A DNA stretch of 64,000 nt from Batkoa obscura (lineage: Eukaryota). Shown here piece by piece: positions 2,358 to 16,826 of the stretch; position 1 is the stretch's first letter; each line of letters starts with the position of its first letter. The notes below the pieces were generated by a model. It saw only the letters and a program-made list of their open reading frames with translations. It was not told the DNA's origin and searched no databases. A program made the translations under genes and the position numbers. The stretch spans positions 1,240,001-1,304,000 of the forward strand of contig JASVEC010000003.1 in the NCBI GenBank assembly GCA_030770535.1, in the 5' to 3' direction.

Positions 2358-2901
2358 AAGGCATGATATTTTAAAAGTAAGTTTTTATTTATTATAAGTT
2401 TTTTAATAATAATAATTGACTAACTTAAATAAATAGTAATTTTTATCATGTTATAAACATAATTAATTCAATAAAAAAATCAATATTAATAATTAAATAT
2501 TTTAGTATAAATTATGAAATAAATCAATTTATATTTGTTTTTACTGTAGTATTTTTAATTACTATTATTAGTTTCATTTTATTTAATAATATATTTTTAA
2601 ATTTCTGTTTATTAATTAGTTTTTATTTATTAAAATGACTGTATTAGATATTTAAAATATTATTGTTGGTTATTAAAATGCTGGGTTTATATAGTTTTGT
2701 TTTATATTATTATTTAATATGGGGGTGTCCGAATTGGTTTCAGAATTTAACTAGAAATTAATCCAAATTTTAAGTTTTTAAATTTGTGAGTCTTTAATGT
2801 ATGATCAGCTAAATTTAAAAAGCTTAAGACTAAATATAAAAATTTAACTTAAAGACTTATTTTATTTATTTTATTTTATTTTATTTTTTTGATTATATGT
2901 T

Positions 2902-3261
2902 TGTGAAAGTTAGTACTCAGTAATTGGAGTTAGAGGCAGTTCTAGCTTAGTTAACTGGCCGTAAGTCAAAAGGCCTTAGTTTATGTAGCTAAGATAGACT
3001 TAAATCAATAGGAGTAATACGCAATAAGCCACGAGCTATGTAAAATAAATAGAATACAGGATATTACTATAAAATCTACATAAGATATTGTCAGAAAGAT
3101 TTAGTGGCTTTATTAAAAGTAAAATATTAGGGAACAATTTAATTAAAAAGCCTTGAGCTATTATGTTGAAGAATCTATTTTATACTCAACTAGTTTTGTA
3201 AACAAGTTAAGTGATTATTATGCGATAATCAATCACAGAGATGATGAAACGATATTTCACA
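2902..3261 (+). mobile_element. TGTGAAA...TTTCACA element, short subtype, inside Sola2 copy 1
   Basis: Termini and homology to the family; the same position is occupied in copy 2. Confidence 0.8.
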
Positions 3262-3352
3262 GTGTTTTGTATTTTTTATTAAATATTCAATAGCTATATA
3301 ATATATAATTATATAGTTATTTGACTTTGTTTTTTGTTAAAATAAAAACAAA

Positions 3353-5525
3353 ATGCAAGCTTTTATAACTAAACTTCGAAATGGAATTTCTAAAAACTTT
3401 AATACGGTAGGGAGAAGCACATTATATAAACATTGTAATTCATTTACATCAATTTTAGCAACTATTCACAATAGCCCAAAGTTTATGGAATTTTATAATA
3501 AAACAAAAAAAAGAAAAGAAATGTTATTAAATTTTACTATTAATAATAACAAACTTAATCAAGCAATGTATAAAATTAGTACTTTAAGGGAAACAGGAAA
3601 TAAAAACCAACAAGTAGCATTATTATCGACTATAGCTTCAGTATATTCTTTTGATGAATGTAAAAGTTTTGGATTTAATATAAGTAAAAATCAATATGAT
3701 TATTCAAAAATAATTAATAATAATAAAATACCAACGTTACGACCTACTATCAAAAATACAAAAAAAATTAAAGATGAGCAAATTGAGATTATTATACAAT
3801 ATTTACTTGATAATTCAACTATTTCATCAAGATTTAGTAAAAAAAATAATGATAAATATTCGTCAGAGAATATATATACATTAAATAAAAGTAGAAGAAT
3901 GATATACAGTAAGTATTTTAATGATTTAAAAGATAAAGCAGTAGTCAGGTCAACATTTTTCAAATATATACCAAATAATTTTAAAAATCCAGCAAGAAAA
4001 ACAGATTTATGTAATATATGTGCCCAGTATACAGTTAGAAAAAAGTTATTTGAAAATAAAATAAATACAGCAACAAAAAATAAAGCAGAGATAGAAGAAT
4101 CTTTTAATAAAGAAAAAAGGTTATATAAATTACATGAATTTTGTGTTGATACTCAAAAAAACATACTTAATGAAACTATTGAAAAATTAAATAATAGAAG
4201 TTGTATAATAATTTTAGACTTTAAACAAAATATGGAAATAGGAACAAGACCAGATCCAATAAATTTAGATCATTATAATAAACAAGCTATATCAGTATTA
4301 GGGTTTGGCGTTTTATATTTAAAAAATGATAAAACAATAGGCAAAGTTTATTTTGATTATTTATCTGAAATATTAAATCATGATTCAGCATATGCAGGAG
4401 ATTGTTTAATTGATTTAATATCTAAAGAGCCTTTATTTAAAAAGTTTACAAAAATTAATATATGGGCAGATACAGGATATCATTTTAAATCTCAAGAGTT
4501 TTTACATTATGTATTTGAAGAAATTTATAAAATAAATAGTAGTTTAAATATTGATTTTAATTTTTTTGCTGAGCATCATCGAGAAAGTATAGTTGACGGG
4601 CATTTTGGAAATCTTTCACAGTGGAAAAATAGTTTTGAAGCATTAGGTAAAATAGAAGATATTGATCAATTAATTTCAAAATTTGAGATTTTTGTTTGTG
4701 TGTGAAAGTTGATACTTATTGGTCGAAGTTAAAAGCTACTCTTGCTTAATTAACTTGCCTTGAGTCGAAGGGTCTTAGTTTATGTAACTAAGGTAGACTT
4801 AACTTAATAGAAATAGTATGTAGTAAGCTACGAATTATGTAAAACAAATACAATGGAAGATACTACTATAAAATCTATATCAGATGTTGTCAGAAAGACT
4901 TAGTGACTTTATTAATGATACGTTATCAGGGAGTAATCCAATTAAAAAAGCCTCGAGTTATCATATTGAAGAATCTCTTTTATACTCCAATAAGTATGGA
5001 TATCAAAACGAGAAGATAATATTCTTTGCAATATGAAGTTAGAAATTCTCGCAGCAAATCAAAATAAGGGACTCGGACTTGGTTGTGTTTGAACTTGAGA
5101 ACACAACAACTTAAATCATTGTTGTGTTATAATCAATCCGAGAGCTAGATAAAGCAATATTTCACAGTGAAAATAATAGATTTAATAACTCAACTGTCAA
5201 TAATGGGCAAATAAATATAATTTTTAAAAAGTATGAAAGAAACAAAGATACAAAAAAAATAATAAAAATAAAAGGTATTAAAAAGTATTTACATTTTATT
5301 AAACGTGGTAAAAAACTACACTGTTATCCAGTATCTGATAGATCAAAAAAAAGCGATATAATTTCAATTAAAGTTATAGAGTCTATAGAGGATAGAAAAA
5401 TTAAAAGGTCAACCCCAGCTTATCTTACAAAAATAACTGAGAATTTAAAAGTTTCAATATTTAGTAAGCAAGTAAGTAGTTTATTAGATGATAGAAATCA
5501 ATTATTAAATGTTGATATTACTTAA
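3353..5525 (+). pseudogene. Sola2-like transposase interrupted by an insertion at 4701-5166
   Basis: Motifs TDLCNIC, ILDFKQN, WADTGYHFKS, SIVDGHFG and IKGIKKYLHF. Removing the insert and its GTG duplication restores an open frame of about 567 aa ending at TAA 5523-5525. Confidence 0.8.
4701..5166 (+). mobile_element. TGTGAAA...TTTCACA element, long subtype, in transposase copy 1
   Basis: Empty site visible in copy 2 (TTTGTTTGTGAAAATAAT); GTG duplicated. Confidence 0.85.
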
Positions 5526-6639
5526 ATTATTAATAGCTAAGTTAATAAATAGTCAAAGAGCAAGTAGTTGTAATAATAAGTAAAAACTATTATTATACTG
5601 CTTGTGTTACATAGGGATGGTTAATTGTAGTTTTAAGGCTAACCACTCCCTCCCATGCAGCTATTTATTAACTTAGCGATATATTAATAATGTAATTATA
5701 ACATTAAAATAATTTATTTATTTGATAGCAAATCTGCAATGTTGAATATAAAACAGTCAATAATAAATATTTCTTAATAAAGTTATATAAAAGTATATAC
5801 TTATTTACATATTACAACTTTGACTAATATCACTATACAGGCTATATTAGTAAAATCTTTACTAATCCAGGAATTTATATTAAATTTAATAAAAATTCCG
5901 CTAATTGACAATATAAATTATAACAAAATAATTTAAAACTGTGTCGGGTACTTTTGGCTTTTAATAAAGAATTTATTTTTATAGAATTTTAAGCAAAGTT
6001 TTTAAAATATAAATATTTAAAAATTGGATAAAAAAATGAAACCAATTCGGACACCCCCATATAAAGCTTAAACTTTTTATAAATCTTATTTTAGACTATT
6101 TAACATACTATTTATTAATTTAAAAATTTATGAAAATAAGTATAATACCTACAGCTAAATTAGTAATTGCATTTGAGAGAAAAAGAGATATTAGTGCATA
6201 TAAACTCCAACTTGAAGCTGTAGTTAATATAATGTCACCAAAAGTACTAATTGCGCTACACAATCTAGCTTCAATAATAGCGAAACCTATAAAACAACCA
6301 AATATAATATATAGAGTAGTAAGAGATTCATTTAATAATATACTTATAACAATAGAATTACTAAGAAAATATATTAAGTAAAGGAGGAAGTTAAATGCAG
6401 AAATTCTATGTATAGACTTGATGTATTTTAATTGTTTATATAAAATTACACCACAAAAAAAATAAAGAATTTTGTAACGCCAAGTTACCAATTGATCACG
6501 ATATCATGTAGCTACATGTATCAATAGGGATATCGACTCTCATTGTATTCAGGAAATATAATTCTGTAAAGTTACATTTTGTTTTAATAATCCAGACTGA
6601 TTTAAATGCCCAACTAATTTGATCTGTTATTTCAAAAGA

Positions 6640-7480
6640 TGGTGATTATTTTTCTTCTACTGTAGCGGAAAAAGGTCATAAAAAAGGATTTGAATTTGAT
6701 CTTCAATCCTAAAGATATAATGCTATTATAAATACCGGAAGTTCAGATTTATTTGCTAGATGTGGAGAAAAGCATCTAGAAACAAAATTTTTGATTATAA
6801 ACTCTAATGGTATTTATATATTAAGTATTAATAGTTATCAATTCGAAAATACTTTTAATGCTAATACTAACTTCATCAATACATTTAGATTTAACATTTA
6901 CAAGCCACTGTAGTTTATTGATGCTTTAAATCTAAAAGTTCAAGGTTTTTTGATTACTCACAAATTTGATATTAAAAAAAAGTATATAGCAACGCTTGAA
7001 GTCATTACCGCTATGGAAGCATTCTCTTCAATCTCTGGCAGTACTATATTATTGTTGATTGACTCATCAATCATTTCAGCAAAATGTAAGAAAAGGTAAG
7101 TAATATTAAATTAAAATATTAAAAAGATAGTCAATGAAGACAACAATTGAATACCAATCTATTTATTGAAACTTTAGGGAATAACCTGACCTTTAAGAAA
7201 GTCGTTACTAATCGAAAGCCCAACTCTTAAACTATTTCCAGTATGAGCCTCTTCACGTTCTGCCTTCTAAAAAATTACGATTGAAATTAGCCAATTTCCA
7301 GATTTCGAATTCACTAAATCTGTTAGGATCAAATTCAAAATCATAAAACATTCCAAAAGGTTCTAAGTTGGAAAATCCCAACTTTAATACCTTGAACCTT
7401 GTAAATACCATATTGAATATAATAGTATGACTTACCTCTCGGTACTACACCTTGTCATGTTTGGCCGCTTCGGAAAGTCC
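6640..7480 (+). pseudogene. Degenerate pepsin-like aspartic protease
   Basis: AIINTGSSDLF at ~6722-6754 resembles DTGSSDLW. A frameshifted ILFN-SGSTI at ~7021-7048 resembles the second DSG(T/S)T lobe. Many stops; boundaries approximate. Confidence 0.45.
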
Positions 7481-8073
7481 TGAACTTTTACTTTAAATGA
7501 TATAAATACTCATATTAACTTTTAATAAACATTATTTTAAAATTAGAATATTAATTCAACTCATTTTCAATTTTATTTCCTTACCTTACTTGTAAAGTTA
7601 CTAATAAAATGACTTTCCTGATTAACCTGTAAAATTTCACAACAAAGAGTGACGATTTTGTCACATTTTTAGCTTTGGCTGTCATAGATATTACAAATGA
7701 TCATGGCTTTACTATTTGAACTTTATACTTTAACAGTGATGTTATTTAAATTAATAGTATGAGGCTTAAGATAAGATGAATGATTGATTTTAATTTAAAA
7801 GCTACCTCAACAAATACTGGTTCAGCGGGTACAGAATTAGCAAATCGAAAAATATGTCAGTGATTAAAAGTATCAGTCCTTCATTATTTATCATATAAAT
7901 ATATTTATTAATATATCAATAGCATCCCCTATCGATTCCAGAAGCCTTCAGGAAGGTATTGTCAAATATTGCTTCATTCTACTAGGATAAATTCACTTCA
8001 GTCATCAATTGATCACATAATTAATAAAATAATGATTGGTTTAATTGGTTTTCAATCTAATGATTATGTATAT

Positions 8074-8171
8074 GGAGCTGTTTTTTTGATTTCATTATTT
8101 TTTGCATTTTTTAAGCGCTATTTCAGCGGAAAGATTGTTGGTAAAATTCTTAAACAAAAAAATATAGATTC
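8074..8171 (-). mobile_element. MITE
   Basis: Family consensus in reverse, ATAT flanks. Confidence 0.8.
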
Positions 8172-8262
8172 ATATATTACCAACTTTAAAACTAAATGAA
8201 ACATTTCAATTAACGTCACCTGATTTAAATCAATGAATATCATACCAGGATTTTGCTCATAT

Positions 8263-8361
8263 GGGGATGTATTTTTTGTTCAAGAATTTCACCAACAATC
8301 TTTCTGCTCCAAATAGTGCTTAAAAAAGGGAAAAAATAATAAAGCTAAAAAAAACACCCCC
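8263..8361 (+). mobile_element. MITE
   Basis: Family consensus, ATAT TSD. Confidence 0.85.
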
Positions 8362-8647
8362 ATATATGTATTTCACCCCTAAATTCGAATATACATGGAC
8401 ACAGTGTTAAATTAAATCACGATTACTATAAAACTTACTAAATTACGATAGATTATAATTAACAAACTTTGGGTGTATTTATGAATTATAAATGAAGTAC
8501 CATAGATTGCTCATTTAATTTAATGAGGGATTCAAGTTTAATCTAGAAGCTATCAATAGCGACACACACTAAGTGATATAAATAGCATGATTGCTATCGT
8601 TTTTCATAAATTTATTTTTATCAAGGAATATTTTAAAATATTTGTTT

Positions 8648-9925
8648 ATGACCATGTATTCTAATTCAAATCAACAAAACACAACTAAAAAATTCAGAAG
8701 TCAAGCTGAATTGAATCAATCCAATATTAAACCTAATCGTGTACCTACATTAACCAAAGAAAAACCAACAGAAAATTCAGCTATTGTACCTAACTTAATG
8801 AAACAAGAAATTACGACAAAAGTTGACAGATATTTTAAGGCTAGAACACCCGAAGGTAATGGTGTAATAAGAGATATTATATTGAGACCAGCATTCAACA
8901 CAGATAGTATTAATGTTGGTGATAATGACTACTTATGTATTGCAAAAGTTATTGGTGTAAGTAACTATGACTCGGAAGTAATTATGTCAAATGTTTTTAT
9001 ATCTGATGAGGGACCACAAGGCAAACTTGAAAAGGATATGGCGGAATATATAGGCAAAGAATCATCCATTATAACTCAGTCCGGTTATGCAGCTAATTCT
9101 GGTCTCCTTCAGTGTTTATGTACCAATGAAACAAATGTTTATATAGATAGCTTTTTACATGCATCTTTTAGAGATGGAATCGGTTTTAGAAAACCAAAAA
9201 TGCATATCTTTAAACATAATAATGCCAATGACTTAGAAAGATTAGTAGAAAATAATGGTTATGGTATCATTGTAGTTGAAAGTATCTATAGTGTAACTGG
9301 GGACTCTACGCCTCTTGAAAAGGTAATAGATATCAAAAAAAAGTACGGGTGCTTATTAGTACTTGATGAATCGCATTCATTAGGGTTGTATGGGGAGAAA
9401 GGTAGAGGGTATACTAGTTTATTTGATCACCAGCATGTTGATATTATTACTGCTAGTTTAGCAAAAGCATTTTGTGCAAGAGCAGGGATCATAGCAGGTG
9501 ATAAAAGACTTGTTGAGTATGTAAAAGAAAATTCTATGCCTCATACATTTAGTTCATGTATCATGAACTATGACTTAGTCCGGATGCATAAGATATTAGA
9601 TAAAGTAAAAAGTATGGATAAAGAGCGAGAGCATCTTATGGACATATCAAAAGAGTTTCGAAGGGTTTTAGGGCATATTGGTGCACCATATACTAAATCT
9701 GAATTTACTTCACCAATCATTAGTTTAGTATTTCCATCCGAAAGGGAATTAGTGAAAATGAACCAATATTTATTAAAAAAAAACATATTTGCTTCATGTT
9801 TTGTTCATCCAACTACAGCTAGAGATGCTCCTTGTTTAAGGTTCACATTGAACTCAAACATTACTATGAAAGATGTCAGTTACATTATATCCCAAATATC
9901 TTCCTATAATGGTTCAAAGTTATAA
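8648..9925 (+). CDS. cqsA: CqsA/LqsA-like PLP-dependent alpha-hydroxyketone autoinducer synthase (alpha-oxoamine synthase family), intronless
   Basis: Collinear with recalled V. cholerae CqsA motifs: NDYL, MSxxF, QSGxxANxGLLQxxC, TNVYIDxFxHxS, FxHNN, GIIVVxSIYS, DESHSLG, TASLAKxFxxRAG (PLP lysine), FxSxFxxPxT and RxxLNS. First ATG at 8648; TATA-like TATATAAAT at ~8576. Confidence 0.88.
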   Translation: MTMYSNSNQQNTTKKFRSQAELNQSNIKPNRVPTLTKEKPTENSAIVPNLMKQEITTKVDRYFKARTPEGNGVIRDIILRPAFNTDSINVGDNDYLCIAKVIGVSNYDSEVIMSNVFISDEGPQGKLEKDMAEYIGKESSIITQSGYAANSGLLQCLCTNETNVYIDSFLHASFRDGIGFRKPKMHIFKHNNANDLERLVENNGYGIIVVESIYSVTGDSTPLEKVIDIKKKYGCLLVLDESHSLGLYGEKGRGYTSLFDHQHVDIITASLAKAFCARAGIIAGDKRLVEYVKENSMPHTFSSCIMNYDLVRMHKILDKVKSMDKEREHLMDISKEFRRVLGHIGAPYTKSEFTSPIISLVFPSERELVKMNQYLLKKNIFASCFVHPTTARDAPCLRFTLNSNITMKDVSYIISQISSYNGSKL

Positions 9926-10261
9926 TTTGATTAGCTAGTTTTCATAACTAAGTATGATAAACCATATTACTTTATTACTTTATTATAAAATTAAACTAAA
10001 AATAAACATTATTCAAAAACAGATTACCATTTGATTTAGTACTTCATTAGATTAGTTTGTGAGATAACAATTAAGTATTTAAACCACTAGTTTTTTGAAT
10101 CACTTTGATTTTTAAAAGTAGAGCAATAAAATAAATATTTTTGATAATATAAAAAAATGTGAAAATCTTAGAAATTTTATAACTTAAAGAATCGATCTTT
10201 TCAAAAAAACAAAACATTCAAACAAAAGATGTAGCCATTTAAAGTTTACTATAATTTTAAC

Positions 10262-11476
10262 TTACATTGATTTATAAAATAAAACATCTCCTTCATCTTC
10301 TACAAACAAACAATTTCTTGCAGATCTATACAAAGATAAATGAAGTGGTGTCTTATCATAAAGATAATATTGATCCAATTTAACTTTAAGATATTTTGTA
10401 GCTTCAATTGCATTATAGAAGGGCATCCGGGGGAACAAATGATGAGCAACATGTGAATCATTAATATGATGGAGAGCAACATTAAGAAACCAACCATAAT
10501 CACGATCAACAGTAGTTAAGCAACCTCTAACATAGTTCCATTCCTTTGGATTATAGTGGGGTAAATAAACATCCGTATGTTGTAAAAGGGTGATGATTAC
10601 TACCCAAGCGTTACAAACAAGATAGGGTATTGAATAATATCTAGTAACTGCCCAGAAGGAAGTTATTTTAATAAAATAAGCAATTACAAATAATGCTACC
10701 ATTAAACCAGCGTCTGAAAGTAAAACATCAAATGCTTGGTGTGGACGAAAAAGTGGAGATTTTGGATCGAAATGAGAAACATTCTGGTTATAACGTTTAC
10801 CAGAAGCATTGCATATAAGATAAGCGGGCAATCCAATTAGCAAAATTTTGATTAAGTATAAAACTGTATAGATTGGAGCTGATTTAACGGACCCATTTAT
10901 TGTATCATACAGCTTATTGTACTCACTCCTCGTAATTGGTACGTATCCTTGATCCTCATATAAATGAGCAGTATGAGCATGATGACGAGCATGAGAAATA
11001 GCCCAAGAGAAATATGGGATCAACAATGCACTGTGTAATACAAATCCAGTAAAATCATTAATAATTCTATAATCTGAGAATGCTTGATGACCACATTCAT
11101 GAGCAACAACCCATAGTGCAGTCAAGAATACACCTTGGAAAAACCAATACAATGGCCATAAAATCAATTGAATAATAAACGAAAAAGTATTAAAGTAAGT
11201 TGCAATATAAAATAAACCGGAGCATATTAATAAATCAGTCAATAGGTAAAGAGAATATTTAACTGTAGAGCGCTTGAACAAATGAGATGGTATACTATCA
11301 CGCAATTCCTTCATTGTGAAATTTGGCGGTGTATAGTTTTTATGATAGAACTCAATGCCTTCATTACTAGCTATATAGCTTAAATCATTTGCTTTGAATA
11401 CATTGTCTTTCAAATTGTTATAGTGTATTGAATCAATTTTTTTATTGCTATAATTAATTATTTCTGGTGGAGACAT
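10262..11476 (-). CDS. FAD2: Delta-12/omega-6 (FAD2-like) fatty acid desaturase, intronless
   Basis: Three His boxes (HECGH, HARHH, HVAHH); N-terminal PPNFTMKELRDSIPSHLF; LQHTD and TVDRDYG motifs. Confidence 0.9.
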   Translation of the reverse strand: MSPPEIINYSNKKIDSIHYNNLKDNVFKANDLSYIASNEGIEFYHKNYTPPNFTMKELRDSIPSHLFKRSTVKYSLYLLTDLLICSGLFYIATYFNTFSFIIQLILWPLYWFFQGVFLTALWVVAHECGHQAFSDYRIINDFTGFVLHSALLIPYFSWAISHARHHAHTAHLYEDQGYVPITRSEYNKLYDTINGSVKSAPIYTVLYLIKILLIGLPAYLICNASGKRYNQNVSHFDPKSPLFRPHQAFDVLLSDAGLMVALFVIAYFIKITSFWAVTRYYSIPYLVCNAWVVIITLLQHTDVYLPHYNPKEWNYVRGCLTTVDRDYGWFLNVALHHINDSHVAHHLFPRMPFYNAIEATKYLKVKLDQYYLYDKTPLHLSLYRSARNCLFVEDEGDVLFYKSM

Positions 11477-12242
11477 TATTCTATTAAAAACTTTTTATAG
11501 ATTTTGTTTTTAATTTATACCTTCTCATATTCTAATTTTCCTTTTTTAGTGTGTATTCAGGAATATATAAGCAATGATATTATTACGAAATCATTTACAT
11601 CAACGATGATCTGAAACATGAACTACTTTTTCCTCCCCTTTTTCTGAAATCAAGTTTAATTGAGGGTGTTTTTTTAATTTAATTACTTTTTCTACTCTTC
11701 ACCTTATTAAGGGAGGTCTCGGGTAACTACTCCAAAAATTAGTTTAACCTTGAATAAAATTCGTCTATGATTCTACAGGAACTTTAACTAAACAAAGTAG
11801 TTTTGAATAAAATTTCAAGAATACTCTACATTCAATTTATTATAAAGCTTAATTTATCCTAAAACAAAACAGCTTTTATTGGCTATTTGATAATATTGGA
11901 CCTAGAATATTAAAATACAAAATACAAAAAATAATAAAATGATGAAAAATCAATTAAACTTTAGTTTTTATAAATTTTGCAATAAAAAAGTGAAATAGTA
12001 AATTTTAAAATTTATTTATTTATTTATTTAAAATTTTACTTAGTAATTAAACAAAAAGTAATTAAAACATTTATTTCTAAATGAAATTTCAATTTCAATT
12101 TTAATTATAATATTTAAAAATTAGTTTAAAAATTAGTTTGAATTTTATTTAGTTTAATTTTCAATAACGATTGTAAATCAAGCACCAAGTGGGGGTGTCC
12201 GAATTGGTTTGATTTTTTATCCAATTTTTAAATATTTTATAT

Positions 12243-12436
12243 GGGGAAGTATTTTTTTAAGAATTTTACTAACAATCTTTCCACTCAAATGGGGATGTTT
12301 TTTGGTTTCATCACTTTTTCCATTTTTAAGCGCTATTCGAATGGAAAGGTTGTTAGTAAAATTCTTAAACAAAAAAATACTTCCCCAAATAGCGCTTAAA
12401 AAATGGAAAAAATAATGAAGCCAAAAGAAACACCCC
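12243..12436 (+). mobile_element. MITE with a second, inverted MITE nested inside (12291-12386)
   Basis: Outer TSD ATAT; inner TSD AAAT splitting CCACTCAAAT/AGCGC; absent from Sola2 copy 1. Confidence 0.85.
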
Positions 12437-13104
12437 ATATTTTAAAAACTTTGCTTAAAATTCTATGAAAATAAATTATTAAAAACCAAAAGTACCCAAC
12501 GCAGTTTTAAATTATTTTATTATAATTTATATTGTAAGTTAGCAGAATTTCTATTAAATTTAATACAAATTCCCAAATTAGCAAGGCTTTTACTAACATA
12601 GCCTATATATTAATATTAATCAAAGTTATAATATATAAATAAATGAATATTTCTATAGAACCTCATTAAGCAATATTTATTATTGACTGTTTTATATTCA
12701 ACATTGCAGATCTGCTATCAAATGAATAAATTATTTTAATGTTATAATTACATTATTAATATATCGCTAAGTTAATAAATAGCTGCATGGGAGGGAGTGG
12801 TTAGCCTTAAAACTACAATTAACCATCCCTATGTAACACAAGCAGTATAATAATAGTTTTTACTTATTATTACAACTACTTGCTCTTTGACTATTTATTA
12901 ACTTAGCTATTAATAATTTAAGTAATATCAACATTTAATAATTGATTTCTATCATCTAACAAGCTACTTACTTGCTTACTAAATATTGAAACTTTTAAAT
13001 TCTCAGTTATTTTTGTAAGATAAGCTGGGGTTGATCTTTTAATTTTTCTATTCTCTATAGACTCTATAACTTTAATTGTAATTATATTGCTTTTTTTTTA
13101 TCTA

Positions 13105-13563
13105 TGTGAAAATTAATACTCAGTGGTCGGAGTTAAAAGCTACTCTTGCTTAATTAACTTGCCTTGAGTCGAACGATCTTAGTTTATGTAACTAACATAG
13201 ACTTGAATTAATAGGGATAATACGTAATAAACTACGAACTATGTAAAACAAATATAATAGGAGATACTACTGTATAATCTATGTAACATATTGTCAGAAA
13301 GACTTAGTGACTCTATTAATGGTACGGTATCAGGGAGTAATTCAGTTAAAAAGCCTCGAGTTGTCATATTGAAGAATCTCTTTTATACTCTTTGCAATAT
13401 GAAGTTAGAAATTCTCACAGCAAATCAAAACAAGGAACTCTGGATTGGTTATACCACATGATTTATGGTCAAATTGATTACAAGACTACAACTAGTTTTG
13501 TAAACAAGTTCAATGATTATTATGTTATAATTAATCCGAGAGCTGATAAACCAATATTTCACA
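13105..13563 (+). mobile_element. TGTGAAA...TTTCACA element
   Basis: TCTA TSD; empty site in copy 1. Confidence 0.85.
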
Positions 13564-14472
13564 TCTATCAGATACTGGATAACAGTATAGTTTATTATCA
13601 TGTTTAATAAAATGTAAATACTTTTTAATACCTTGTATTTCTATTATTATTTTTACATCTTTGTTTCTTTCATACTTTTTAAAATTGTATTTGTTTTCCC
13701 ATTATTGACAGTTGAGTTATTAAATCTATTATTTTCACAAACAAAAATCTCAAATTTTGAAATTAATTGATCAATATCTTCTATTTTACCTAATGCTTCA
13801 AAACTATTTTTCCACTGTGAAAGATTTCCAAAATGCCCGTCAACTATACTTTCTCGATGATGCTCAGCAAAAAAATTAAAATCAATATTTAAACTACTAT
13901 TTATTTTATAAATTTCTTCAAATACATAATGTAAAAACTCTTGAGATTTAAAATGATATCCTGTATCTGCCCATATATTAATTTTTGTAAACTTTTTAAA
14001 TAAAGGCTCTTTAGATATTAAATCAATCAAACAATCTCCTGCATATGCTGAATCATGATTTAATATTTCAGATAAATAATCAAAATAAACTTTGCCTATT
14101 GTTTTATCATTTTTTAAATATAAAACGCCAAACCCTAATACTGATATAGCTTGTTTATTATAATGATCTAAATTTATTGGATCTGGTCTTGTTCCTATTT
14201 CCATATTTTGTTTAAAGTCTAAAATTATTATACAACTTCTATTATTTAATTTTTCAATAGTTTCATTAAGTATGTTTTTTTGAGTATCAACACAAAATTC
14301 ATGTAATTTATATAACCTTTTTTCTTTATTAAAAGATTCTTCTATCTCTGCTTTATTTTTTGTTGCTGTATTTATTTTATTTTCAAATAACTTTTTTCTA
14401 ACTGTATACTGGGCACATATATTACATAAATCTGTTTTTCTTGCTGGATTTTTAAAATTATTTGGTATATAT

Positions 14473-14935
14473 TGTGAAAGTTGATACTTAGTGGTCGAAG
14501 TTAAAAGCTACTCTTGCTTAATTAACTTGCCTTGAGTCGAAGGGTCTTAGTTTATGTAACTAACATAGACTTGAATTAATAGAAATAGTACGTAATAAGC
14601 TACGAATTATGTAAACAAATACAACGGAAGATACTACCGTAAAATCTATATCAGATGTTGTCAGAAAGACTTAGTGACTTTATTAATGATACGTTATCAG
14701 GGAGTAATCCAATTAAAAAGCCTCGAGTTATCATATTGAAGAATCTCTTTTATACTCCAATAAGTATGGATATTAAAACGAGAGGATGTTATTCCTTGCA
14801 ATATGAAGTTATAAATTCTCGCAGCAAATCAAAATAAGGGACTCTGACTTGATTGTGTTTGAACTTGAGAACACAGCAACTTAAGTGATTGTTGTGTTAT
14901 AATCAATTCGAGAGCTAATAAAGCAATATTTCACA
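14473..14935 (+). mobile_element. TGTGAAA...TTTCACA element, long subtype
   Basis: ATAT TSD; empty site in copy 1; close to the 4701 copy in sequence. Confidence 0.85.
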
Positions 14936-15642
14936 ATATTTGAAAAATGTTGACCTAGCTACTGCTTTATCTTTTAAATCATTAAAATATTTACTGTATA
15001 TCATTCTTCTACTTTTATTTAATATATATATATACTATCTGACGAATATTTATCATCATTATTTTTTTATTGAATCTTGATGAAGTAGTTGAATTATCAA
15101 GTAAATATTGTATAATAATCTCAATTTGCTCATCTTTAATTTTTTTTGTATTTTTAATAATAGGTTGTAATGTTGGTGTTTTATTATTACTAATTATTTT
15201 TGAACAATCATATTGATTTCTACTTATGTTAAATCCAAAACTTTTACATTCATCAAAAGAATATACTGAGGCTATAGTTGATAATGCTACTTGTGGTTTT
15301 TATTTCCTGTTTCCTTTAAAGCACCAATTTTATACATTGCTTGGTTAAGTTTGTTGTTATTAATAGTAAAATTTAATAACATTTCTTTTCTTTTTTTTGT
15401 TTTATTGTAAAATTCCATAAACTCTGGGTTATTGTGAATAGTTGCTAAAATTGATGTAAATGAATTACAATGTTTATATAATATGCTTCTCCCTATCGTG
15501 TTGAAATTTTTAGAAATTCCATTTCGAAGTTTAGTCATAAAAGCTTGCATTTTGTTTTTATTTTAGCAAAAAATAAAGCCAAATAATTATATATTTATAT
15601 TTTATATATCTATTAGACATTTAATAAAAAAATACAAAACAC

Positions 15643-15998
15643 CGTGAAATATCGCTTCATCAGCTCTATGATTGATTATCATACAATAATCATTTGACTT
15701 ATTTACAAAACTAGTTGGAGTATAAAAGAGATTCTTCAATATAATAGCTCGAGGCTTTTTAATTGAGTTATTCCCTGATATCGTACCTTTAATAAAGCCA
15801 CTAAGTCTTATAGTATTTTAGGTAGATTTTACAGTAGTATCTTGTGTTGTATTTGTTTTACATAGTTCGTAGCTTATTACGTATTATCCCTATTAATTCA
15901 AGTCTATGTTAGTTACATAAACTAAGACCGTTCGACTCAAGGCAAGTTAATCAACCAAAAACTGCTTTTGACTGCAATCACTGAGTACCAACTTTCAC
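15643..15998 (-). mobile_element. TGTGAAA...TTTCACA element, short subtype, inside Sola2 copy 2
   Basis: Same position as 2902-3261; nearly identical to 16470-16826. Confidence 0.85.
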
Positions 15999-16469
15999 AA
16001 ACATACAATTAAAAAATAAAATAAATCTTTTAAGTTAAATTTGGCTAATCATACATTAAATACTTACAAATTTAGAACTTAATTTGGATTAATTTCTAGT
16101 TAAATTCTGAAACCAATTCGGACATCCCCAAGTGCTACTAAAATAATTGTTTTTTTACTTGATTTTAAAACAATTTATATTGAAATGTTTCTTTGTTTAG
16201 TTTTATCAATAGTTTTAAAAAATAAATTTGTTATACAAAGAATAAATAAAAAAATAAATTTAAATATTAAACAATAATTAAAAGCAAGTTCTTTTAGTTA
16301 ATAATATATTTAATTTTAAACTTTTAATACAAATATATATACTAAGATAAATTTAATATAATAATAAAATAGCTTTTATATTGGTTTGTATTCAAAAGGC
16401 ATATTTTAAACTTACAGAAGTGTTTTCATTTCGAATTCAAAGTCAAAAGTATGCTTTTCAAATACAAAT

Positions 16470-16826
16470 TGTAAAAGTTGGTACTCAGTGATTGCAGTCA
16501 AAAGCAGTTTTTGGTTGATTAACTTGCCTTGAGTCGAACGGTCTTAGTTTATGTAACTAACATAGACTTGAATTAATAGGGATAATACGTAATAAGCTAC
16601 GAACTATGTAAAACAAATACAATACAAGATACTACTGTAAAATCTACCTAAAATACTATAAGACTTAGTGGCTTTATTAAAGGTACGATATCAGGGAATA
16701 ACTCAATTAAAAAGCCTCGAGCTATTATATTGAAGAATCTCTTTTATACTCCAACTAGTTTTGTAAATAAGTCAAATGATTATTGTATGATAATCAATCA
16801 TAGAGCTGATGAAGCGATATTTCACA
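16470..16826 (+). mobile_element. TGT(G/A)AAA...TTTCACA element
   Basis: Family homology; imperfect TSD AAAT/AAAG. Confidence 0.8.

What the first reader, a model, noticed from the sequence alone, without database searches (positions are those of the whole stretch)
8648..11476. cqsA-like plus FAD2-like desaturase: candidate two-gene cluster for an unsaturated acyl-ketone signal
Seen: two intact, intronless genes converge 336 bp apart and are the only clearly intact genes in a TE- and pseudogene-filled island. Both act on fatty-acyl substrates. Inference: the desaturase tailors the acyl chain used by the synthase, giving an unsaturated amino- or hydroxyketone. Divergent FAD2 enzymes are known to act as hydroxylases, conjugases or acetylenases, so the chemistry could be novel. 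I know of no described pathway with this pairing.
Basis: inference. Interest (0 to 1): 0.8.

Follow-up and report, generated by a model that had tools for sequence, protein, structure and literature searches.

The report
Peroxisomal signal synthase beside drifting desaturase
An insect-pathogen-type fungus carries a relative of the bacterial enzyme that makes cholera-type signal molecules, ending in a peroxisome import tag, next to a fast-changing extra copy of a fatty-acid desaturase; the two likely became neighbours recently and likely do not form one direct pathway.

Summary
Both genes are real, intact, single-ORF and convergent, 336 bp apart. The PLP enzyme is CqsA-like by sequence, tree and fold, but scores under the NCBIfam cut-off (339 vs 428). 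It belongs to an old, patchy eukaryotic branch (Entomophthorales, Mucorales, Mortierella, ascomycetes) marked by a peroxisomal PTS1 tail: 22 of 35 rows against 1 of 76 outside; here SKL. The FAD2 is not the housekeeping type. It has 33 derived changes against 6 in its Neoconidiobolus thromboides orthologue (synthase control 14 vs 16), a conjugase-associated Pro349, and a second, canonical-type copy shows in close relatives' DNA. The pairing is narrow: kept in relatives 2-8% diverged, while N. thromboides and Conidiobolus coronatus hold the listed homologues on different contigs. Direct tailoring is unlikely: FAD2 works on ER phospholipid C18 chains, and the synthase is predicted to use shorter acyl-CoAs in peroxisomes. 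Best reading: a stand-alone peroxisomal aminoketone synthase plus a young desaturase duplicate that landed beside it (0.58). A young cluster coupled indirectly through beta-oxidation remains open (0.22). No product or co-regulation is shown.

The parts
8648..9925 (+). CqsA-like PLP alpha-oxoamine synthase, 425 aa; about 50-aa N-terminal extension ahead of the Met (8801) where homologue models start; PLP Lys273
   Evidence: NF005526 339 bits, cut-off 428; CqsA E 1.5e-60; next family 1e-33; TM 0.89 to 2wk7/3hqt
9914..9922 (+). C-terminal Ser-Lys-Leu, peroxisomal targeting signal type 1
   Evidence: sequence; shared by the clade
9926..10261 (.). 336-bp convergent intergenic region
   Evidence: covered by overlapping contigs in run X1
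10262..11476 (-). Divergent FAD2/delta-12-type desaturase, 404 aa; His boxes at 126, 162, 342; departures at conserved sites include G120A, V177G, F178Y, W216L, L292V, A319C, S349P
8069..8366 (.). MITE-like high-copy element about 280 bp upstream of the synthase start
   Evidence: many copies in the window; very high summed depth in runs X1 and X5
2721..6058 (+). DNA transposon, terminal inverted repeats, ATAT target duplication, open 450-aa ORF at 3353-4705
12191..16129 (-). Second, broken copy of the same transposon, inverted, with its own AAGT target duplication
6120..7450 (.). Stop-riddled, gene-like single-copy stretch of unknown origin (possible pseudogene)
   Evidence: no Pfam hit in six frames read through with X; single-copy depth in X1

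Best explanation
The first gene is a CqsA-like PLP enzyme ending in SKL that likely works alone inside peroxisomes, where it is predicted to join a medium-chain acyl-CoA from beta-oxidation to SAM or a small amino acid and give an aminoketone; the second is a fast-changing FAD2 that is likely a young duplicate which landed next to it and likely acts separately on ER lipids. Shown: the gene identities, the PTS1 tail across the clade, intact PLP-site residues, the FAD2-specific rate acceleration, a second canonical-type FAD2 in close relatives, and separate contigs for the listed homologues in two outgroup genomes. Inferred: peroxisomal location, substrates, product, bacterial origin of the clade, age of the duplicate, and independence of the two genes.
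For: Synthase: best family NF005526; fold closest to CqsA; S145, G146, H171, D240, S242, H243, S270, K273, R398 match the CqsA PLP pocket (pocket list from PMC8301110 passages). Fungal clade of 22 rows at 94.2/98, grouped with four probably bacterial rows at 99.4/97. Strict PTS1 in 22 of 35 clade rows vs 1 of 76 others. A fungal AOS enzyme that uses a peroxisomal acyl-CoA via PTS1 has precedent in BioF (PMC3713238 passages). The synthase is far older than the pairing: N. thromboides KAI9292565 (38,853-bp contig) vs its delta-12 KAI9291714 (26,555-bp contig); C. coronatus KXN65100 (10,807) and KXN67691 (60,593) vs KXN66111 (30,215). FAD2 acts on oleate on phosphatidylcholine in the ER (PMC3554562); CqsA uses SAM and decanoyl-CoA (PMC9516700). 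The flanking transposons have separate target duplications, so the pair was not carried as one composite element. In run X9 the piece that follows the linked-type FAD2 5' part has canonical Ser-Gln and 475 letters of flank unlike the window.
Against: The neighbour is exactly the odd FAD2 copy: 33 vs 6 derived changes against 14 vs 16 for the synthase (Fisher p 0.0015), 11 departures at 93 conserved columns (median 2; 1 of 121 homologues has as many), and Pro349, reported as conjugase-associated in plants (PMC3554562 section 5). A duplicated, re-tuned lipid gene beside a secondary-metabolism-type enzyme is how young clusters look. The arrangement persists in X1 and appears to in X5, and the FAD2 frame is gap-free over 1014 nt at 6.5% divergence in X9, close to the synthase's 5.8%, which suggests it is still constrained. 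Only the best 120 of 452 FAD2 hits were listed, so a further paralogue beside the synthase in outgroups is not excluded; both outgroup assemblies are fragmented.
Confidence: 0.58

Rival explanations
1. A young two-gene cluster with indirect coupling: the re-tuned FAD2 makes an unusual (conjugated, trans or shifted) C18 acid on ER lipids, peroxisomal beta-oxidation shortens it to an unsaturated C8-C12 acyl-CoA, and the synthase turns that into an unsaturated aminoketone.
For: FAD2-specific acceleration and Pro349; canonical copy present in X1, X2, X5; linked copy keeps Pro349-Arg350 in X1 and X5 (table 3); PTS1 puts the synthase where shortened acyl-CoAs arise; contigs of both genes occur in X9, guessed to be RNA.
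Against: No linkage in the two outgroups; the synthase clade is spread over fungi for which no desaturase neighbour is known to me (neighbourhoods not available); other divergence marks are absent (Ala before box 1, Thr at the CpFAH12-198 site, no (D/N)VX(H/N)); X9's 3' piece is canonical; an indirect route needs no linkage.
Confidence: 0.22
2. One reading: the desaturase directly modifies the acyl chain that the synthase uses, or its product.
For: Adjacency, convergence and divergence of the FAD2.
Against: FAD2 family acts on phospholipid-bound C18 in the ER; the FAD2 has no PTS1 (ends KSM) while the synthase does; characterised CqsA takes C10-CoA, which has no carbon 12.
Confidence: 0.06
3. 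The synthase is a primary-metabolism AOS, e.g. a stand-in for peroxisomal BioF (pimeloyl-CoA plus alanine), not a signal or secondary-metabolite enzyme.
For: Fungal BioF is also PTS1-tagged (PMC3713238); 24 of 26 fungal rows have Glu where 177 of 177 bacterial CqsA-type rows have Asp, and Glu is the commoner residue in lower-scoring AOS relatives (68 of 107); score is under the CqsA cut-off.
Against: bioF model scores 204 vs 339 bits for the CqsA model; tree places it inside the CqsA group at 100/100 against four outgroup rows; patchy presence, two copies in C. coronatus, and short, possibly truncated, models in A. fumigatus and A. novofumigatus fit an accessory gene.
Confidence: 0.08
4. The FAD2 is the only, housekeeping delta-12 enzyme of this organism.
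For: The window's own genome is not held, so a second copy was not seen in it.
Against: Run X1, 97-98% identical here, holds extra FAD2 pieces 15-20% different, and the other-type pieces read Ser-Gln at 349-350.
Confidence: 0.06

Closest known systems
Vibrio CqsA (PDB 2wk7, 3hqt), Legionella LqsA, Janthinobacterium JqsA alpha-hydroxyketone autoinducer synthases
   Same: AOS fold (TM 0.89), PLP pocket and lysine, best family match, same clade.
   Different: Eukaryotic, PTS1-tagged, below the NF005526 cut-off, Asp-to-Glu shift at one pocket site, no neighbouring sensor kinase (bacterial synthases are described as always beside one, PMC3566124 passages); substrate and product untested.
Fungal and plant peroxisomal BioF (KAPA synthase)
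   Same: AOS family enzyme with PTS1 that uses an acyl-CoA made in peroxisomes (PMC3713238 passages).
   Different: Different subfamily by score and tree; patchy rather than broadly kept.
Divergent FAD2 enzymes (plant conjugases, acetylenases; Claviceps CpFAH12 hydroxylase beside CpFAD2)
   Same: Duplicate beside a retained canonical copy, changes clustered near the His boxes, Pro at +3 after box 3.
   Different: Keeps Ala before box 1, Thr at the CpFAH12 Ile198 site and lacks the acetylenase motif; arose independently in Entomophthorales; activity unknown.
Fungal AOS-containing clusters (fumonisin, myriocin/sphingofungin type)
   Same: AOS enzyme in fungal secondary metabolism (search listing only; SphA is a weak PDB hit, E 1e-8).
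   Different: Those are PKS clusters (recalled); no PKS ORF was seen in this window, and the enzyme is from the CqsA branch.

Membership tests
alpha-oxoamine synthases (AOS) | Fold-type I PLP domain with SG, H, D-x-x-H, Schiff-base Lys and C-terminal Arg | tested here: met
CqsA/LqsA autoinducer synthases (NF005526) | Score at or above the curated cut-off of 428 bits | tested here: not met
   339 bits; ten other clade rows 283-356
CqsA/LqsA autoinducer synthases (NF005526) | Phylogenetic placement with CqsA-type proteins | tested here: met
   100/100 against four outgroup rows; nearest probably bacterial rows P0253 and P0254 pass the cut-off. Nested versus sister position is unresolved (36.6/64).
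CqsA/LqsA autoinducer synthases (NF005526) | Cognate CqsS/LqsS sensor kinase gene adjacent | tested here: not met
   no such ORF between 1000 and 17600
CqsA/LqsA autoinducer synthases (NF005526) | Uses SAM plus medium-chain acyl-CoA to give an amino-enone / hydroxyketone signal | not testable with these tools
   needs an enzyme assay
PTS1 peroxisomal proteins | C-terminal (S/A/C)(K/R/H)(L/M), conserved in orthologues (consensus recalled) | tested here: met
   SKL; 22 of 35 vs 1 of 76; localisation itself untested
BioF / 8-amino-7-oxononanoate synthase | TIGR00858 cut-off 426 bits | tested here: not met
   204 bits
FAD2 / delta-12 desaturases | Three histidine boxes and FA_desaturase domain | tested here: met
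   HECGH 126, HARHH 162, HVAHH 342; tree sister to N. thromboides delta-12
FAD2-derived conjugases | Pro at +3 after the third His box | tested here: met
   LFPRM; 1 of 121 homologues shares it; feature from PMC3554562
FAD2-derived conjugases | Gly immediately before the first His box | tested here: not met
   Ala125 (feature)
FAD2-derived acetylenases | (D/N)VX(H/N) at -5 to -2 of the third His box | tested here: not met
   HIND (feature)
CpFAH12-type hydroxylases | Ile (not Thr) three residues after the second His box | tested here: not met
   Thr169 (feature from PMC6771796 passages)
Biosynthetic gene cluster | Linkage conserved across species | tested here: inconclusive
   kept in X1 and apparently X5; listed homologues on separate contigs in two fragmented outgroup assemblies
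Biosynthetic gene cluster | Co-regulation | not testable with these tools
   runs were contigs only, which cannot rank expression

The most novel reading that the evidence does not exclude
A newly forming fungal pathway in which a neofunctionalised FAD2 makes an unusual fatty acid, peroxisomal beta-oxidation trims it, and a bacterially derived, peroxisome-retargeted CqsA turns it into an unsaturated CAI-1-like aminoketone that acts as a fungal signal or jams bacterial alpha-hydroxyketone quorum sensing in insect cadavers or soil.
Probability: 0.2. Interest if true: 0.85.

Novelty: new variant of a known kind. Interest (0 to 1): 0.52.

Why it matters
CqsA-type synthases are treated as bacterial and sensor-linked in the papers I read. 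A fungal branch retargeted to peroxisomes would mean that fungi from three phyla may make CAI-1-like aminoketones, which is testable with one soluble enzyme. Searches listed no paper whose title or abstract start describes it (open-access library only). The desaturase is separately worth assaying: few divergent fungal FAD2 enzymes are characterised (recalled), and this one carries a conjugase-associated mark. The two-gene pathway itself is the least supported part.

Tried and rejected
Whole-genome search for a second FAD2: no genome held. Composite-transposon capture of the pair: rejected, each flanking element has its own target duplication. Bacterial contaminant: rejected; GC3 0.23 in both genes lies within 0.19-0.32 of six other ORFs, and the closest homologues are entomophthoralean. 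Fungal neighbourhoods from metagenomes: the scan returned 80 loci, none scoring as the fungal clade among the top 25 inspected; 0 of 81 loci hold a FAD2-like ORF at E 1e-3, which speaks only for mostly bacterial loci. Sensor or reductase in the decayed stretch 6060-8070: no Pfam match. Expression ranking from contig depth in X2 and X9: not used, the tool says depth cannot rank genes; X2 is also odd (synthase pieces identical to the window, low-depth FAD2 pieces 6-7% different) and may be mixed. Missing cover in any run was not used as evidence. His30 of CqsA as a specificity mark (recalled): not conserved among bacterial rows (56 of 177), dropped. Match of Tyr178 and Leu216 to Crepis acetylenase determinants: recalled only; one search listed no paper with those residue terms, so it is not used. 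The primary CqsA papers were not held. Support labels printed were shifted by re-rooting; values are. The tree is the quick one, not the careful search. No complex prediction was run. Supplementary files were not read; an HGT table naming these genes could exist in supplements.

Full report
Observation. The window is AT-rich eukaryotic DNA. ORF 8648-9925(+) gives 425 aa and ORF 10262-11476(-) gives 404 aa; they converge across 336 bp. Closest named homologues of both are from Neoconidiobolus thromboides (68% and 76%), so the host is likely an entomophthoralean fungus. Neither exact protein is in the collection and no genome is held.

The synthase. Its best NCBIfam match is the alpha-hydroxyketone autoinducer synthase model, 339 bits against a cut-off of 428; bioF scores 204. 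V. cholerae CqsA is the best PDB sequence hit (E 1.5e-60; next family 1e-33) and the best fold hit of a pLDDT 88.9 model (TM 0.89). The PLP-pocket residues listed for a Vibrio CqsA (PMC8301110 passages) are kept, including Lys273; 70 of 86 columns conserved in 177 bacterial-type rows are kept. One site shifts: Asp in 177 of 177 of those rows, Glu in 24 of 26 fungal rows. CqsA condenses SAM with decanoyl-CoA to an amino-enone (PMC9516700 passages).

A eukaryotic branch. Named hits come from Neoconidiobolus, Conidiobolus (two copies), Gongronella, Mortierella, Drechslerella, Dactylellina, Emericellopsis, Conoideocrella and ten Aspergillus species. In a 62-row tree, 22 such rows (named fungi and unnamed rows that group with them) form a clade at 94.2/98, and join two more tagged rows and four probably bacterial rows at 99.4/97. 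One of these four is from an Alphaproteobacteria MAG, downstream of integrase and toprim genes and facing a LuxR-family gene. Branching within the clade roughly follows fungal phylogeny, which fits one old transfer with many losses; this is inference, with four outgroup rows and an unresolved root position (36.6/64). The alignment showed that the proteins end in SKL, AKL, CKL, ARL and similar. Strict PTS1 occurs in 22 of 35 rows of the wider clade (FastTree support 0.87) and in 1 of 76 other rows; rows are related, so the p-value overstates it. Several misses look like truncated or mis-spliced models, e.g. P0003 lacks the tag while its cluster twin P0243 ends in SKL. Peroxisomal BioF is a precedent for an AOS enzyme fed by peroxisomal acyl-CoA (PMC3713238 passages).

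The desaturase. All three His boxes are intact. Against 121 homologues it departs at 11 of 93 conserved columns (median 2; one homologue has more), while the N. thromboides protein departs at one. Polarised with three outgroups it has 33 derived changes against 6 (p 1.4e-5); the synthase control is 14 against 16 (Fisher p 0.0015). So the acceleration is gene-specific. Pro349, three residues after box 3, is described as found in plant conjugases (PMC3554562 section 5) and occurs in 1 of 121 homologues. Against a classical switch: Ala before box 1, Thr at the site where Ile makes CpFAH12 a hydroxylase (PMC6771796 passages), and no acetylenase motif.

Second copy and linkage in close relatives (4 of 11 listed runs laid, contigs only). 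X1 covers 8342-11950 in three overlapping contigs at 2-3.5% difference, so the pair is linked there, and holds extra FAD2 pieces 15-20% different. X5 has contigs 8433-9985 and 10077-11746 (5.7% and 8.0%), both reaching into the spacer but with no listed bridge, plus extra FAD2 pieces. The other-type pieces read Ser-Gln at 349-350, the family consensus; the linked contigs of X1 and X5 keep the window's Pro-Arg. X9, guessed to be RNA, has a gap-free synthase contig (8653-9977, 5.8%) and a gap-free FAD2 5' contig (10450-11463, 6.5%), but its 3' piece is of the canonical type and runs on into unrelated flank; this may be a graph branch, gene conversion or a different locus. Of six listed places where all covering runs differ from the window, four change the amino acid, too few to tell relaxed from positive selection.

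Linkage further out. In N. thromboides and C. coronatus the synthase and FAD2 homologues that were listed lie on contigs of different lengths with distant accessions. Only 120 of 452 FAD2 hits were shown, and those assemblies are fragmented. The two transposons flanking the pair are independent insertions with ATAT and AAGT duplications.

Mechanism. FAD2 enzymes act on oleate on phosphatidylcholine in the ER (PMC3554562 passages); this one ends in KSM, not PTS1. A C10 acyl chain has no carbon 12. Direct tailoring therefore needs new substrates for both enzymes and a shared compartment. The simplest reading is a stand-alone peroxisomal aminoketone synthase and a young FAD2 duplicate that settled beside it in a transposon-rich interval (0.58).

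Literature. Searches listed no paper on a fungal CqsA branch (search listings only; one search gave 0 papers); one search listed none on a conjugating Conidiobolus desaturase. PMC3566124 (passages) describes the synthases as bacterial and next to a sensor kinase. PMC6148460 was seen in passages.

Verdict. Real genes, each unusual; a new variant of a known kind. The cluster claim is unproven and narrow. Interest 0.52.

Noticed in passing
window 3963-4700 and 13736-14473: 738 nt of the two inverted transposon copies are almost identical while the rest is 86-95% alike: recent gene conversion, an inversion crossover that could have flipped the 6-kb cassette, or an assembly artefact.
   Followed up: partly
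window 2721-6058: DNA transposon with GGG termini, 4-bp target duplication and an open 450-aa ORF resembling DUF7869 clusters; Sola2-like by recalled criteria only.
   Followed up: partly
window 17342-49761: Seven related intron-poor ORFs (270-550 aa) in two groups; one has a weak Fungal_trans match (E 0.018). A local gene-family expansion.
   Followed up: no
window 8648-8800: About 50 codons of open frame ahead of the Met where homologue models start; covered without gaps by X9. Possible N-terminal extension of unknown role.
   Followed up: partly
L002 322-2781 and L005 3-2435: Bacterial tandem fusion of a second AOS domain to a CqsA-like domain (about 820 aa), directly upstream of a membrane histidine kinase and, in L005, receiver-like genes.
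   Followed up: no
L081 7989-10086: The bacterial sister of the eukaryotic branch lies near an integrase and faces a LuxR-family regulator; no sensor-kinase domain was found among nine neighbouring ORFs scanned.
   Followed up: partly
proteins P0125-P0134 group: An unnamed clade of metagenomic FAD2 proteins sister to the Entomophthorales includes P0133, which shares Tyr178 and Leu216 with the window copy: possibly convergent divergence.
   Followed up: no
proteins P0009, P0017, P0383, P0386, P0394, P0396, P0405, P0413: Unnamed PTS1-bearing CqsA-like proteins outside the named fungal clade that keep the bacterial Asp: the branch may extend to other eukaryotes.
   Followed up: no
window 15644-16825: Element with 357-nt, 99% identical inverted arms, overlapping the end of the right transposon.
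   Followed up: no
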